Shown here: piece after piece, positions 1 to 2,625 of the stretch | Layout: each line of letters starts with the position of its first letter | Position numbering within the stretch: position 1 is the stretch's first letter | DNA from: an uncultured Bacilli bacterium | GTDB taxonomy: Bacteria; Bacillota_I; Bacilli_A; RF39; UBA660 | Direction: 5' to 3' | DNA: 64,000 bases | Assembly: GCA_934168245.1 (NCBI GenBank) | Contig: CAKPMY010000001.1 | Location: forward strand, 68,761 to 132,760 | The notes under the pieces: generated by a model | Told to the model about the DNA's origin: nothing | Databases searched by the model: none | What the model saw: the letters and a program-made list of their open reading frames with translations, nothing else | Program-made: the position numbers and the translations under genes

Positions 1-1369
1 CAAAAGTAACATATCCATCAACAACAGGATAATACTTATAATAAACTAACTTACTTTGTCTTTCATCATTATCAATCCCAATATACCCAACATAGTCTTC
101 ATTAGCAACACCAATACCATCATACATAGTATAGACTTTAACTAAATTATTATCAGTATAAAGTCCTAAACTCTCTCCAGTAGGTAAAGTACCAGTATTA
201 GAAAAATCAGTATAATTAAGTCCCATATAATTATTATAATCACTAGCTAAGTCATTAACATAAACTGTATCTCCTACTATTCCAGAATCATGTAAAACAA
301 TAGGTTCATTAATTGAAAAAGAAAAAGCACTAACACCAATATTATCAGGTACAACCTCATCTCTCTTAATTATTAAAGTATTGCCAAAACTCTCCCAACC
401 AAACTCATAGTCATATCCTTTATTAAGTATTCCTAACAAATCCTTAGTACTAATCATCGTCTTAGTAGAACTATCTACATAATTAGAATCACTATACATA
501 AATTGATTAGTATTTTTACCAGTAGAATTAATATAATTAGATTCGTTATCTATAAATAATGAATTAGTACTAATATTAGTAATTATATTATTACTATCAC
601 AAGCTATCGTATGAGCAACTTTACCTACTGTTAAAATATTAGTAGTATCAAAGGTAATATTAACATAAACATTATAAAACTTACTATCTCCACCTATATT
701 ACCAACAACACCACCTATAACAGTAATATTATCAGATAATACATTAGTTAAATCAAACTTAGTATTTATAACACTAATATTACTAATATTACTATTACCA
801 TTGACATCTCCTGCTAAAGTACCAACTTTATAAGAAACACTTCCTTTAACTGGACTAACAACAATATTATCAATATTCAAATTAACTATACTAGCATTCT
901 CTAAACTATTAAATAATCCATAATAACTAAATCCATTATATATAACTCCACTAGTAATTTTAGCATTCTTAATACTATATCCATTACCATCAAAATATCC
1001 CTTAAATATTCTATCTTGAAATCCAATACCAATAAATTCATGATTATCTAAATTTATATTATTACCAAGCTTATAGTATTTATCATTATATAAAGTATAA
1101 TTATCCCCTTCAATTAATTGTTTAAAGTATGCAAATTCTTCTCCATTATTTATAATATAAGGATTATCTTTAGTTCCATTACCATGAGAAAAAGACGAAG
1201 CAACACTAACTCCATCCCATTTCTCTTCTAACTCATTACTATAACTATCTTTAGCAGTAAATAAATTAATTACACCAAAACAAGCTATTAAAATAATTAA
1301 AGCTAAAAAGATATTTAAAATTAACTTGTTTTTATTAATTCTACTCTCTGCCAAAGTAAATCCCTCCAT
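1..1369 (-). CDS. Large secreted beta-helix/adhesin-like protein, partial (N-terminal ~455 aa in window; gene continues past position 1). Start ATG at 1367-1369 overlaps the sipW-like stop (TGATG).
   Basis: Translated by eye on the minus strand: MEGFTLAESRINKNKLILNIFLALIILIACFGVINLFTAKDSYS..., then a GNGTKDNPYIINNGEEF motif (typical start of parallel beta-helix surface domains), G/N/T-rich repeats, and no stop through to position 1. N-terminus is signal-peptide-like with a LFTAKD segment resembling SipW-cognate signals. Confidence 0.5.
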   Translation of the reverse strand, partial: MEGFTLAESRINKNKLILNIFLALIILIACFGVINLFTAKDSYSNELEEKWDGVSVASSFSHGNGTKDNPYIINNGEEFAYFKQLIEGDNYTLYNDKYYKLGNNINLDNHEFIGIGFQDRIFKGYFDGNGYSIKNAKITSGVIYNGFSYYGLFNSLENASIVNLNIDNIVVSPVKGSVSYKVGTLAGDVNGNSNISNISVINTKFDLTNVLSDNITVIGGVVGNIGGDSKFYNVYVNITFDTTNILTVGKVAHTIACDSNNIITNISTNSLFIDNESNYINSTGKNTNQFMYSDSNYVDSSTKTMISTKDLLGILNKGYDYEFGWESFGNTLIIKRDEVVPDNIGVSAFSFSINEPIVLHDSGIVGDTVYVNDLASDYNNYMGLNYTDFSNTGTLPTGESLGLYTDNNLVKVYTMYDGIGVANEDYVGYIGIDNDERQSKLVYYKYYPVVDGYVTF

Positions 1370-2625
1370 CAATTATTTACATAGCTTTTTAATTTTACGT
1401 ATTTCTCAATCCTTTCAAGTTCAAATACATTTTTATTATCAAATTTAATAGATATTTTCTGCATAAATGTAATTAAAGATTTAAGTTGTTTTCTACCATA
1501 AGTATCATTCTTTTTAACTTCTCTAAAATATCCATTCTTATCTATTTGTATCTTATATTTCATAATCTTATAAATACCATCAAAGAACTCTTCATCATTA
1601 TATAAAATTGCAAAAGTAAGTATCCTTAAAAATACATATATCGGCATCTCATAAATCTTATTACGAAGATTCTCATATAATCCAGCCCTATCTAAATCAT
1701 AATCATATATTTCTTTAAATGTCGGATGATTAATTGTCTCTTCTAACTCAACTGTATCTCCTACCATCAATATAAGCGCAAGTTTATATACATATTGATA
1801 TTTAACTAACCATTTTTTATTTATTCTCGTAGTAGTCAAACTATTATTCTTAATTCTAAGTAAATTAGATACTTGTTCTAATAGTTCTTTTTCTCTTTCT
1901 CTTGCTGTATTTCTCTCTTTCGTAACTATATTATTATTATCTATATCTATAACATCTTCTACTTCTAATACTTCAATCTCTTCTTCACTTTCTGCTTCTT
2001 TTTCTTGTGCCAACTGTATATTAGCAATTTCATCTAAAGGAATAGTCACCGTAAGACCAGATTTTTCCTCTTTTTTATGCTCCTTAGTTGCAAAAATCTC
2101 ATCTGGTACACTACCCTTAGTACTAGTAGTAACGCGTTTATCTCGCATGATATAATTCTGAAAAATACTATCAAAATTAATTAGTGCTAAAAAGATAAAA
2201 AGTATCAAAATAGTTGCAACTACTTTTAGTACAAAACTAGGTGAAATAACAAAAGATACTGTTCCTATCAAATTATCTTTTGTAATGGGAGCATCCTCTG
2301 TATTATTAACATCTCCTTGAGCAATTAACTTATTACCTGACTTTCTAACAAGTCTATGCGTAATAATCTCACCCTTATCATTAACATACGTAATTATATC
2401 TTTTACTTTAGTCTCTTTTGTAATTTTAACGATAATAATATCATCTATCTCCAAAGTACCAGACATACTCCCAGTCTTAACAACAAAATAAGTATATCCA
2501 AATACATTAACATAGTCCTTCTTCATAACATCAGTAACGATAAATGTATATACACATAAACTTACTAATAACACTAAGAACCCACAAGCAATAGACTTAA
2601 ATATCTTTTTCAAGTAAGTCATCAT
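1369..2625 (-). CDS. sipW: SipW-type (ER/archaeal-type S26) signal peptidase I with a ~250-aa C-terminal extension
   Basis: N-terminal TM helix then KTGSMSGTLEIDDIIIV (S26 catalytic Ser region) within the first ~170 aa, and a second TM helix. A long K/E-rich C-terminal tail (~250 aa) is not found in Bacillus SipW (~190 aa). Probable start is the ATG after a GTGGGTGG RBS (ORF-track start 2634 is a GTG). Confidence 0.6.
   Translation of the reverse strand: MMTYLKKIFKSIACGFLVLLVSLCVYTFIVTDVMKKDYVNVFGYTYFVVKTGSMSGTLEIDDIIIVKITKETKVKDIITYVNDKGEIITHRLVRKSGNKLIAQGDVNNTEDAPITKDNLIGTVSFVISPSFVLKVVATILILFIFLALINFDSIFQNYIMRDKRVTTSTKGSVPDEIFATKEHKKEEKSGLTVTIPLDEIANIQLAQEKEAESEEEIEVLEVEDVIDIDNNNIVTKERNTAREREKELLEQVSNLLRIKNNSLTTTRINKKWLVKYQYVYKLALILMVGDTVELEETINHPTFKEIYDYDLDRAGLYENLRNKIYEMPIYVFLRILTFAILYNDEEFFDGIYKIMKYKIQIDKNGYFREVKKNDTYGRKQLKSLITFMQKISIKFDNKNVFELERIEKYVKLKSYVNN

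What the first reader, a model, noticed from the sequence alone, without database searches (positions are those of the whole stretch)
1369..2625. SipW-type signal peptidase with a ~250-aa C-terminal extension
The S26 (ER/archaeal-type) core, with a TM helix, GSMSGTL and a second TM, occupies only the first ~170 aa. The remaining ~250 aa form a charged helical domain absent from characterised SipW enzymes. That extension includes a long EEKS...EEEIEVLEVEDVIDID acidic stretch, and after the second TM it should be cytoplasmic.

B. subtilis SipW is reported to have a peptidase-independent role in surface biofilm formation through its short C-terminus. A greatly expanded C-terminal domain here might be a scaffold, or a regulatory or coupling module. 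That role is a guess.
Basis: partly seen in the sequence, partly recalled or inferred. Interest (0 to 1): 0.55.

Follow-up and report, generated by a model that had tools for sequence, protein, structure and literature searches.

The report
Signal peptidase fused to orphan cytoplasmic domain
An uncultured gut bacterium carries a real, strongly conserved gene in which a small SipW/Sec11-type signal peptidase is fused to a roughly 230-residue helical cytoplasmic domain with no known relative, and the gene sits in a fixed cassette next to a roughly 2,800-residue surface protein.

Summary
Window 1369..2622 (minus strand, 417 aa) is one intact gene with this layout: TM1, a minimal ER-type S26 core (Ser52/His89/Asp104/Asp110), TM2, a variable charged tether, then a helical C-terminal domain.

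It is not a frameshift artefact. 43 species-level genomes carry the same single ORF, and dN/dS of the C-domain is 0.05-0.15, as low as or lower than the peptidase part.

The gene belongs to a conserved cassette in RF39-order gut Bacilli:
- a 234-aa membrane-anchored beta protein;
- a 335-aa protein with a SipW-type signal peptide (TYA|WF);
- a ~45-aa protein and a ~550-aa protein, both cytoplasmic;
- this peptidase;
- a 2,600-3,040-aa secreted protein that follows in 69 of 74 cases, 12 nt downstream in this window.

Most likely it is the cassette's dedicated signal peptidase, and its cytoplasmic domain is an adaptor or scaffold. That role is inferred, not shown. I class it as a new variant of a known kind, of moderate interest.

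The parts
1369..2622 (-). Whole gene, 417 aa plus stop: an S26B-type signal peptidase with a C-terminal cytoplasmic domain.
2527..2595 (-). TM1 (residues ~10-32), preceded by a basic N-tail (K5, K6, K9).
2245..2517 (-). Minimal S26 catalytic core (residues ~36-126) holding Ser52, His89, Asp104 and Asp110.
2173..2241 (-). TM2 (residues ~128-150).
1906..2172 (-). Charged tether and linker (residues 151-239). It comprises a disordered tether, the semi-conserved strand-helix motif SGLTVTIPLDEI (residues 188-214), and an acidic low-confidence loop (residues 215-239). Its length ranges from 24 to 146 residues across the family.
1372..1905 (-). Conserved all-helical C-terminal core domain (residues 240-417), an orphan fold. 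Invariant residues are K274, Y279, F302, E304, Y308, D348, K352 and L402.
1..1354 (-). 5' part of the giant downstream gene (2,839 aa in L001). It has an N-terminal signal or anchor and the motif WDGVxVAxSFxxGNGTxxNPY. Its start lies 12 nt after the peptidase stop, with a GGAGGG ribosome-binding site inside the end of the peptidase gene.
2700..2719 (-). Terminator-like hairpin directly upstream of the peptidase gene, after the variable insert gene.
2718..4340 (-). Variable insert of two genes (421 aa and 113 aa). It is present only in close relatives and is absent from most cassettes.
4428..6092 (-). Conserved 554-aa protein with no predicted TM segment and no known family. It is a cassette member.
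6067..6198 (-). Small conserved acidic helical protein of ~43-46 aa. It is a cassette member.
6260..7267 (-). 335-aa beta-rich secreted protein with a SipW-dependent-type signal peptide (..LTASTYA|WFTAN..). It is the probable substrate and is followed by a terminator-like hairpin at 6223-6244.
7285..7989 (-). 234-aa protein with one N-terminal TM and an extracellular beta domain. It is the most conserved cassette member. It shares the C-terminal motif W-EG-D--C-N..GG with the 335-aa protein.

Best explanation
The gene encodes the dedicated ER-type (SipW/Sec11-like, S26B) signal peptidase of a conserved surface-structure cassette in uncultured RF39-order gut Bacilli.

**Peptidase part.** The protein sits in the membrane N-in/C-in, with the small catalytic barrel outside. 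There it most likely removes the SipW-type signal peptide of the neighbouring 335-aa beta protein. The predicted cut is after TYA, which leaves Phe at P2' as in TasA. It may also remove the signal peptide of the ~2,800-aa protein encoded 12 nt downstream.

**C-terminal part.** Behind TM2, a flexible charged tether of variable length holds an independently folding ~180-230-residue helical domain in the cytoplasm. I infer that this domain is a cis-side adaptor. It would tie the peptidase to cytoplasmic parts of the same machinery: the ~550-aa and ~45-aa cassette proteins, the conserved cytoplasmic tail of the 234-aa anchor protein, or the export apparatus handling the giant protein. Processing would then happen where these substrates emerge.

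**Shown versus inferred.** Shown here are the gene's integrity, its domain anatomy, the conserved catalytic residues, selection on the C-domain, the orphan status of that domain, and the conserved gene order. Inferred are the peptidase activity, the substrates, the topology and the adaptor role.
For: **S26B identity.**
- The NCBIfam SipW model hits residues 17-122 (E = 8e-12).
- The family profile hits SEC11A (E = 6e-6) with the catalytic residues aligned.
- Ser, His and Asp are kept in 50 of 51 members.

**The C-domain is real and selected.**
- Its dN/dS is 0.05-0.15, against 0.09-0.18 for the peptidase part.
- The C-core is ~80% identical where the S26 core is ~64%.
- The AF2 model has pLDDT 85.5 and pTM 0.85.

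**The C-domain occurs only with the S26 core.**
- There are only 51 clusters in 1.84 billion representatives. Every full-length hit I fetched and read has the S26 N-terminus.
- In the fetched loci, 85 of 85 C-domains follow an S26 core.

**Cassette linkage.**
- The order 234 aa, ~335 aa, ~45 aa, ~550 aa, peptidase, giant is conserved from 92% down to ~30% identity.
- The giant gene follows in 69 of 74 cases. 64 of 67 cassettes hold the fused gene.

**Substrate.** TIGR04088, the SipW-cognate signal peptide model, matches 7 of 12 members of the 335-aa family. It reaches the cut-off in L131.

**Topology.** Charge bias supports N-in/C-in.

**Tether behaviour.** Linker length ranges from 24 to 146 residues, and up to ~250 in P0123.

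**Function beyond catalysis.** In L051 the catalytic residues are lost and the S26 core is 24% identical, yet the C-core is kept at 46%.

**A cytoplasmic interaction surface exists.** The 234-aa anchor has invariant residues in its short cytoplasmic tail: V7, A11 and Y15.
Against: - No partner or activity of the C-domain is shown. It has no fold or sequence relative to lean on.
- Linkage is not absolute. L033 and L034 carry a well-conserved fused gene in an unrelated neighbourhood.
- L131 has the cassette, including the ~550-aa protein and the giant, but no fused peptidase. It has only a 174-aa C-domain-less close homologue 7 kb upstream.
- L072 and L127 have the 234/335/550 trio with no fused gene downstream. 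In L072, which I read in full, a short SipW lies upstream instead.
- The ~550-aa protein therefore does not require the C-domain.
- The peptidase scores far below the curated SipW cut-off (45 against 190 bits), and the archaeal-type model TIGR02228 did not hit it.
- The 335-aa and 234-aa proteins give no Pfam or PDB sequence match to TasA-type proteins.
- I could not count the signal peptidases in the whole genome, so it is unproven that this one is dedicated rather than housekeeping.
- The fetched loci are not independent samples. They include duplicates and were selected through the gene or its neighbour.
Confidence: 0.45

Rival explanations
1. The cytoplasmic domain is a regulatory or signalling module, an enlarged counterpart of the 20-residue cytoplasmic tail of B. 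subtilis SipW. That tail switches on matrix genes independently of peptidase activity. Here the domain would sense or report export load and control expression or assembly of the cassette.
For: - SipW's peptidase-independent role through its cis-side C-terminus is documented (PMC8767453, citing Terra et al. 2012).
- The C-domain persists where the peptidase has degenerated (L051).
- The domain is conserved in L033 and L034 away from the cassette.
Against: - No DNA-binding, kinase, nucleotide-binding or other signalling domain or motif was detected.
- No regulator gene is conserved in the cassette.
- The B. subtilis tail and this domain share no demonstrated homology.
Confidence: 0.2
2. It is the general housekeeping signal peptidase of these small genomes. 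The C-terminal domain is a lineage-specific appendage, for example for stability, oligomerisation or membrane localisation. It has no role specific to this locus, and the gene order is conserved synteny only.
For: - L033 and L034 have the gene outside the cassette.
- L131, L072 and L127 run the cassette without it.
- No other S26 gene lies in the 64-kb window.
- Genomes of this group are about 1.1-1.4 Mb, judged from the longest contigs.
Against: - The gene order holds across relatives as distant as ~30% identity in the C-domain, while the genes flanking the cassette differ between lineages.
- Spacing to the giant gene is tight, at 12 nt.
- A SipW-type signal peptide with Phe at P2' lies in the cassette. 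PMC10269814 links this feature of TasA to inefficient cleavage by E. coli LepB and to processing by the dedicated SipW.
- Paralogous duplication occurs inside one cassette (L125).
Confidence: 0.2
3. The protein acts mainly as a non-catalytic assembly chaperone, like Streptococcus pyogenes SipA/LepA, which is needed for pilus polymerisation. The C-domain would be the anchoring or organising part, and peptidase activity would be secondary.
For: - In L051 a catalytically degenerate family member lies between a sortase gene and a protein ending in an NPKTN-type sorting signal.
Against: - The full Ser/His/Asp/Asp set is kept in 50 of 51 members, including this one. That argues for catalysis.
- The window cassette has no sortase, and the giant protein has no LPXTG-type signal.
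Confidence: 0.1
4. The long ORF is an artefact: two genes fused by a sequencing or assembly frameshift.
For: None found.
Against: - The same single ORF of 405-470 aa occurs in 43 independently assembled species genomes and in more than 1,000 database proteins.
- The C-domain is never found as a free-standing full-length protein.
- dN/dS is 0.05-0.15 in frame.
Confidence: 0.01

Closest known systems
[quoted passage not shown]
   Same: - It has the S26 fold with a Ser-His-Asp type active site rather than Ser-Lys.
- It has TM segments at both ends of the catalytic domain, with the C-terminus on the cytoplasmic side.
- It is encoded in an operon with secreted beta-rich proteins that carry a SipW-type signal peptide with an aromatic residue just after the cut.
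- SipW's cytoplasmic C-terminus has a second, non-catalytic role (PMC8767453).
   Different: - SipW is ~190 aa with a 20-residue tail. This protein has ~265 residues after TM2, including a folded orphan domain.
- It scores only 45 bits on the SipW equivalog model, whose cut-off is 190.
- The neighbouring proteins are not recognisable as TasA/TapA (Peptidase_M73) by sequence.
- The cassette also holds two conserved cytoplasmic proteins and a ~2,800-aa protein.
Eukaryotic SEC11A/SEC11C, catalytic subunit of the ER signal peptidase complex
   Same: It is the best sequence match among solved structures (E = 6e-6). Its catalytic Ser, His and two Asp align with the residues of this protein.
   Different: From my own knowledge, SEC11 has a single TM and works with separate accessory subunits (SPC12, SPC25, SPC22/23) that supply the cytosolic parts. 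Here a cytosolic domain is fused to the catalytic subunit itself. No homology to those subunits was detected.
Streptococcus pyogenes SipA/LepA, a signal-peptidase-like pilus assembly factor
   Same: - It is encoded within a surface-fibre gene cluster.
- One family member, in L051, is catalytically degenerate and lies next to a sortase.
   Different: - From my own knowledge, SipA lacks the catalytic residues and has no long cytoplasmic domain.
- The window protein keeps all catalytic residues, and its cassette has no sortase.
The 174-aa short ER-type signal peptidase in metagenome locus L131, the closest C-domain-less relative found
   Same: - It is ~50% identical to the N-terminal 160 residues of this protein (phmmer E = 6e-29).
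- It lies near the same cassette: the 234-aa, 335-aa, 550-aa and giant genes.
   Different: - It ends a few residues after TM2.
- It passes the archaeal-type SPase I model TIGR02228 (73 bits).
- It lies 7 kb upstream among small TasA-like genes rather than in front of the giant gene.

Membership tests
Signal peptidase I, ER/archaeal type (MEROPS S26B; SipW/Sec11) | S26/S24 beta-barrel fold of the catalytic domain | tested here: met
   [not shown]
Signal peptidase I, ER/archaeal type (MEROPS S26B; SipW/Sec11) | Catalytic Ser with His (not Lys) as general base, plus conserved Asp residues | tested here: met
   Ser52, His89, Asp104 and Asp110 align with the catalytic Ser, His and two Asp of SEC11A. 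They are kept in 50 of 51 family members.
Signal peptidase I, ER/archaeal type (MEROPS S26B; SipW/Sec11) | Membrane topology with the catalytic domain on the trans side, flanked by N- and C-terminal TM segments | tested here: inconclusive
   Two hydrophobic segments and positive-inside charge bias fit this topology. No dedicated topology predictor or experiment was available.
Signal peptidase I, ER/archaeal type (MEROPS S26B; SipW/Sec11) | Signal peptide cleavage activity | not testable with these tools
   This needs biochemistry or genetics.
Bacillus-type SipW equivalog (NCBIfam NF046067) and archaeal-type SPase I equivalog (TIGR02228) | Score at or above the curated cut-off of the model | tested here: not met
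   NF046067 scores 45.1 bits against a cut-off of 190. TIGR02228 is not reported at E <= 0.01. The C-domain-less relative in L131 does pass TIGR02228, at 73.2 bits against 51.85.
SipW-TasA type fibre operon | Neighbouring secreted protein with a SipW-dependent-type signal peptide (TIGR04088) | tested here: inconclusive
   The window's 335-aa protein scores 15.3 bits against a cut-off of 19. 7 of 12 orthologues match, with best E = 5.8e-4. The L131 orthologue scores 19.0, exactly at the cut-off.
SipW-TasA type fibre operon | Major subunit of the TasA/camelysin family (Pfam Peptidase_M73) or the TasA fold | tested here: inconclusive
   Twelve orthologues of the 335-aa protein gave no Pfam hit to that family even at E <= 1. 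Neither the 335-aa nor the 234-aa family gave a PDB sequence hit.
SipA/LepA-type inactive signal-peptidase-like pilus chaperone | Loss of the catalytic residues | tested here: not met
   The catalytic residues are present in the window protein and in 50 of 51 relatives. They are lost only in L051/P0135.
SipA/LepA-type inactive signal-peptidase-like pilus chaperone | Location in a sortase-dependent pilus gene cluster | tested here: not met
   There is no sortase in the window cassette, and the giant protein has no LPXTG-type signal. This feature is met only in L051.

The most novel reading that the evidence does not exclude
The cassette is a previously undescribed, sortase-independent surface-assembly system of RF39 gut bacteria. 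In it, a bifunctional enzyme-scaffold does two jobs. It cleaves the signal peptides of a TasA-like fibre subunit and of a ~2,800-residue adhesin. Through a new cytoplasmic fold, it also organises a membrane and cytoplasmic platform that couples synthesis or export of these proteins to their processing and assembly. The platform would include the ~550-aa and ~45-aa proteins and the tail of the 234-aa anchor.
Probability: 0.25. Interest if true: 0.7.

Novelty: new variant of a known kind. Interest (0 to 1): 0.45.

Why it matters
- **What is unusual.** Type I signal peptidases are normally minimal membrane enzymes. The only reported hint that the cytoplasmic end of an ER-type bacterial enzyme does something else is the 20-residue tail of B. 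subtilis SipW. Here the cytoplasmic side has grown into a folded, strongly selected domain with no known relative.
- **Where it sits.** The gene is locked into a cassette with a giant surface protein, in a prevalent but uncultured group of human and animal gut bacteria.
- **What it would give if the adaptor role is real.**
  - A concrete, testable example of a signal peptidase physically coupled to the cis side of export.
  - An entry point to how these small-genome bacteria build their surface.
  - A new protein domain family to define.

Tried and rejected
1. **Frameshift or fusion artefact.** Rejected.
2. **Family searches on the C-domain.** Pfam, NCBIfam and PHROGs gave nothing.
3. **Fold searches on the C-domain model.**
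   - Foldseek against BFVD gave nothing with E <= 0.001.
   - The afdb50 library was not available.
4. **C-domain related to the ~550-aa neighbour.** hhalign found no relation.
5. **TasA-type identity of the 335-aa and 234-aa neighbours by sequence.** There was no Pfam hit for the 335-aa family and no PDB hit for either family. The two share only a 34-column C-terminal motif.
6. **Known family for the ~550-aa protein or the giant protein.** None was found. The only trace is a weak sub-threshold Peptidase_M26_N hit on the giant's N-terminal part.
7. **A third TM in the C-domain.** Residues 323-341 peak at Kyte-Doolittle 1.51, contain Arg, and are modelled inside the bundle. Rejected.
8. **A second S26 gene in the window.** None.
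9. **Structured RNAs in the window.** Only one tRNA.
10. **Terra et al. 2012.** The paper could not be read. The SipW facts are taken from the review PMC8767453.
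Full report
**1. What is in the sequence**

On the minus strand, window 1369..2634 is one open reading frame. Homologues begin MTYLKK, and the 100%-identical database protein is 417 aa.

Hydropathy shows two transmembrane segments, at residues ~10-32 and ~128-150. A weaker hydrophobic stretch at residues 323-341 contains Arg and is modelled inside a helical bundle.

Only the part between the two TMs matches known families:
- NCBIfam SipW (NF046067) matches with E = 8e-12 but only 45 bits against a cut-off of 190.
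- Pfam Peptidase_S24 matches below threshold.

**2. The N-terminal part is an ER-type S26 peptidase core**

- A profile of 18 diverse family members hits human SEC11A (E = 6e-6) and SEC11C.
- In that alignment, window Ser52 (GSMS), His89 (THR) and Asp104/Asp110 (GDVNNTED) fall on SEC11A's GSM serine, HR histidine and GDNN..DD aspartates. By recalled numbering these are the catalytic Ser56, His96 and Asp116/Asp122.
- These four residues are kept in 50 of 51 aligned homologues.

The core is thus a minimal S26 barrel of the Ser/His (S26B) type. It is too divergent to count as an equivalog of Bacillus SipW.

**3. The extension is a real, selected, orphan domain**

*Not an artefact.*
- 43 species-level genomes encode the same single ORF of 405-470 aa at 44-92% identity.
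- More than 1,000 database proteins match.
- Nei-Gojobori dN/dS against seven relatives is 0.05-0.15 for residues 240-417. It is 0.09-0.18 for the peptidase part and 0.12-0.28 for the linker.
- In relatives of 60-70% overall identity, the C-core is ~80% identical while the S26 core is ~64%.

*Predicted structure.*
- AF2 on residues 186-417 with a 29-sequence alignment gives pLDDT 85.5 and pTM 0.85.
- The model is an all-helical bundle of about nine helices plus a two-stranded sheet. The strand LTVTI (residues 192-195) pairs with residues 264-267.
It is among the least conserved parts in distant relatives.
- The tether and linker between TM2 and the core vary from 24 to 146 residues among the fetched loci. 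P0123 has a ~250-residue Pro/Thr/Glu-rich insert there.

*No known relative.*
- Pfam, NCBIfam and PHROGs give no hit.
- BFVD gives nothing.

*Narrow distribution.*
- An exhaustive phmmer of residues 165-418 against 1.84 billion cluster representatives finds only 51 proteins.
- Every full-length hit I fetched carries the S26 core in front.
- In the fetched loci, 85 of 85 C-domains with upstream sequence follow an S26 core in the same ORF.

*Variants that show the domain is modular.*
- P0144 has two tandem copies plus a C-terminal zinc ribbon.
- L125 has two paralogous fused genes in one locus.
- P0135/L051 has lost the catalytic Ser and His and the GD motif, with the S26 core at 24% identity, but keeps the C-core at 46%.

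**4. Topology**

- The N-tail averages 3.1 K+R against 0.16 D+E.
- The segment after TM1 is neutral.
- The first 20 residues after TM2 average 6.1 K+R against 4.0 D+E.

An S26 domain has to act on the trans side. Together with the charge bias, this gives N-in/C-in, with the extension in the cytoplasm. The C-terminal 20 residues of B. subtilis SipW also lie on the cis side (PMC8767453). This is an inference; no experiment or dedicated predictor was available.

**5. Genomic context: a conserved cassette**

All neighbours are on the same strand. tblastn of the window's proteins against the 43 genome loci shows a fixed order:
- a 234-aa protein (7285..7989);
- a 335-aa protein (6260..7267);
- a ~45-aa protein (6067..6198);
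- a 554-aa protein (4428..6092);
- this peptidase;
- a very large gene.

The same order with orthologous genes recurs in distant relatives, where the C-domain is only ~27-31% identical (L044, L048).

Only close relatives carry the two extra genes at 2718..4340. These genes are divergent even between close relatives.

*The downstream gene.*
- It encodes 2,600-3,040 aa with one N-terminal hydrophobic segment and the conserved motif WDGVxVAxSFxxGNGTxxNPY.
- Its composition is rich in Asn, Gly, Ser and Thr.
- Of the six sequences inspected, none has a C-terminal hydrophobic anchor or a C-terminal sortase signal. One (L046) carries an internal NPSTN match ~45 residues from its end.
- In the window it starts 12 nt after the peptidase stop, with GGAGGG inside the end of the peptidase gene.

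*Co-occurrence counts over all fetched loci.*
- The giant gene follows the fused gene in 69 of 74 cases with room.
- 64 of 67 cassettes with room contain the fused gene.
- These loci are not independent samples. They include duplicates and were selected through the gene or its neighbour.

*The likely substrate.*
- The 335-aa protein has a long basic n-region, a hydrophobic core, and ..LTASTYAWFTAN..
- The SipW-cognate signal model TIGR04088 matches 7 of 12 orthologues. The window copy scores 15.3 bits against a cut-off of 19, and the L131 copy scores 19.0.
- Cleavage after TYA would put Phe at P2', as in TasA. PMC10269814 links that feature to inefficient cleavage by E. coli LepB and to TasA's processing by the dedicated SipW.

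*The 234-aa protein.*
- Its equivalent -1 position is A, D, Q or E, so it probably stays anchored by its TM.
- Its short cytoplasmic tail holds invariant residues V7, A11 and Y15.
- It is the most conserved gene of the cassette, at 54-99% identity.
- It shares a C-terminal motif, W-EG-D--C-N..GG, with the 335-aa protein.

*Other cassette features.*
- The 554-aa and ~45-aa proteins have no TM and no known family.
- Terminator-like hairpins lie just after the 335-aa gene (6223-6244) and just upstream of the peptidase gene (2700-2719). Five such sites were found in 7.4 kb, against 0.9 expected.

**6. Exceptions that limit the interpretation**

- **L033 and L034** carry a well-conserved fused gene (52% and 49% identity) in an unrelated neighbourhood.
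- **L131** has the 234/335/550/giant genes with no fused peptidase between them.
  - A 174-aa ER-type peptidase lies 7 kb upstream among small TasA-like genes and two other short SipW-like genes.
  - It is ~50% identical to the window's N-domain, ends right after TM2, and passes TIGR02228.
- **L072 and L127** have the 234/335/550 trio with no fused gene downstream. In L072, which I read in full, a short SipW lies upstream and no giant gene follows.
- **L051** places the catalytically dead family member between a sortase and a protein with an NPKTN-type sorting signal.

So the C-domain was added to a pre-existing short peptidase within one lineage. The ~550-aa protein does not depend on it. The tightest, though not absolute, association is with the giant gene.

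**7. Organism**

- The nearest named record is 'Mycoplasma sp. CAG:877', where the protein is annotated only as 'putative uncharacterized protein' (CCY79269.1).
- GTDB genus CAG-877 is placed in order RF39, family CAG-611 (PMC8035907).
- Most RF39 are predicted to keep a peptidoglycan wall and possibly sporulation (PMC10868615).
- Hosts of the related MAGs include human, goat, roe deer and rabbit guts.

**8. Interpretation**

*Best supported.* The gene encodes a dedicated S26B signal peptidase for the cassette's secreted proteins. It carries a tethered cytoplasmic domain that acts as an adaptor or scaffold on the cis side.

*Support for the adaptor idea is indirect:*
- strong selection on the domain;
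- its exclusive fusion to the peptidase;
- a tether of variable length;
- its retention when catalysis is lost;
- the presence of conserved cytoplasmic elements in the same cassette.

*Rivals I cannot exclude:*
- a regulatory role modelled on the SipW tail;
- a housekeeping enzyme with a lineage-specific appendage;
- a mainly SipA-like chaperone role.

An assembly artefact is excluded.

**9. Novelty and score**

The enzyme class and the operon logic, a dedicated ER-type peptidase next to its special substrates, are known. The large, folded, orphan cytoplasmic domain and the cassette with a giant protein are not described in any family library or structure set searched here, nor in the SipW-focused papers I retrieved. 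I did not run a literature search aimed at this fusion itself.

I rate it as a new variant of a known kind, with interest 0.45. It is a solid, testable lead in an uncultured but widespread gut lineage, with the function of the new domain still open.

Noticed in passing
window 6223-6244 (minus strand): A 9-bp-stem terminator-like hairpin lies directly after the 335-aa gene and before the small ~45-aa gene. This is the pattern seen after highly expressed major-subunit genes in fibre operons. It also means the listed 60-aa ORF (6067..6249) probably starts at its internal Met at 6198.
   Followed up: partly
window 2718-4340 (minus strand): Two extra genes (113 aa and 421 aa) are inserted between the 554-aa gene and the peptidase, only in close relatives. 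They are far more divergent than their neighbours: 44-50% identity against L001, where flanking genes are 83-98%. The 421-aa protein has a helical N-part, a long Ser/Gly/Asp-rich low-complexity region, a C-terminal TM and an acidic tail. No family was found.
   Followed up: partly
L051 4122-7013: A family member with a degenerate peptidase core (no catalytic Ser or His) but an intact C-domain lies between a sortase gene (PF04203) and a 254-aa protein. That protein ends in NPKTN, a hydrophobic stretch and a basic tail, which is a sortase-B-like sorting signal. The arrangement parallels SipA in S. pyogenes pilus islands.
   Followed up: partly
P0144 / L044 7029-8747: This is a 572-aa family member with two tandem copies of the C-terminal domain followed by a CxxC...CxxC zinc-ribbon-like end. 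It sits in an otherwise standard cassette.
   Followed up: no
L125 8702-9904 and 16072-17295: Two paralogous fused peptidase genes (400 and 407 aa) lie in one locus. One is upstream of the 234-aa gene and one is in front of the giant gene. A LemA-like gene and a TPM-like gene are inserted on the opposite strand after the ~540-aa gene.
   Followed up: no
L131 1161-9876 and L072 1118-3147: Upstream of the cassette in these divergent lineages lie clusters of short SipW-like peptidases (one of them apparently inactive, DDQMVP instead of GSM.P). With them are several 200-300-aa proteins that have YA-aromatic type signal peptides. This looks like a multi-subunit TasA-like system next to the cassette.
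   Followed up: partly
window 7285-7989: The 234-aa anchor protein is the most conserved gene of the cassette, at 70-94% identity where the peptidase is 44-92%. It has invariant residues in its short cytoplasmic tail.
   Followed up: partly
window 1-64000: Almost all ORFs of 100 aa or more are on the minus strand, and GC skew is strongly negative over 1-12000, the region profiled. GC is about 23-38%. One tRNA lies at 13749-13832 (minus strand). No other Rfam family reaches its threshold.
   Followed up: no
L033 11317-13400 and L034 11616-12473: Where the fused peptidase lies outside the cassette, a 285-aa lipoprotein-like gene lies downstream in both loci. In L033, 102-aa and 267-aa multi-TM genes separate it from the peptidase gene; I did not read those in L034. 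This may be a second conserved context.
   Followed up: no
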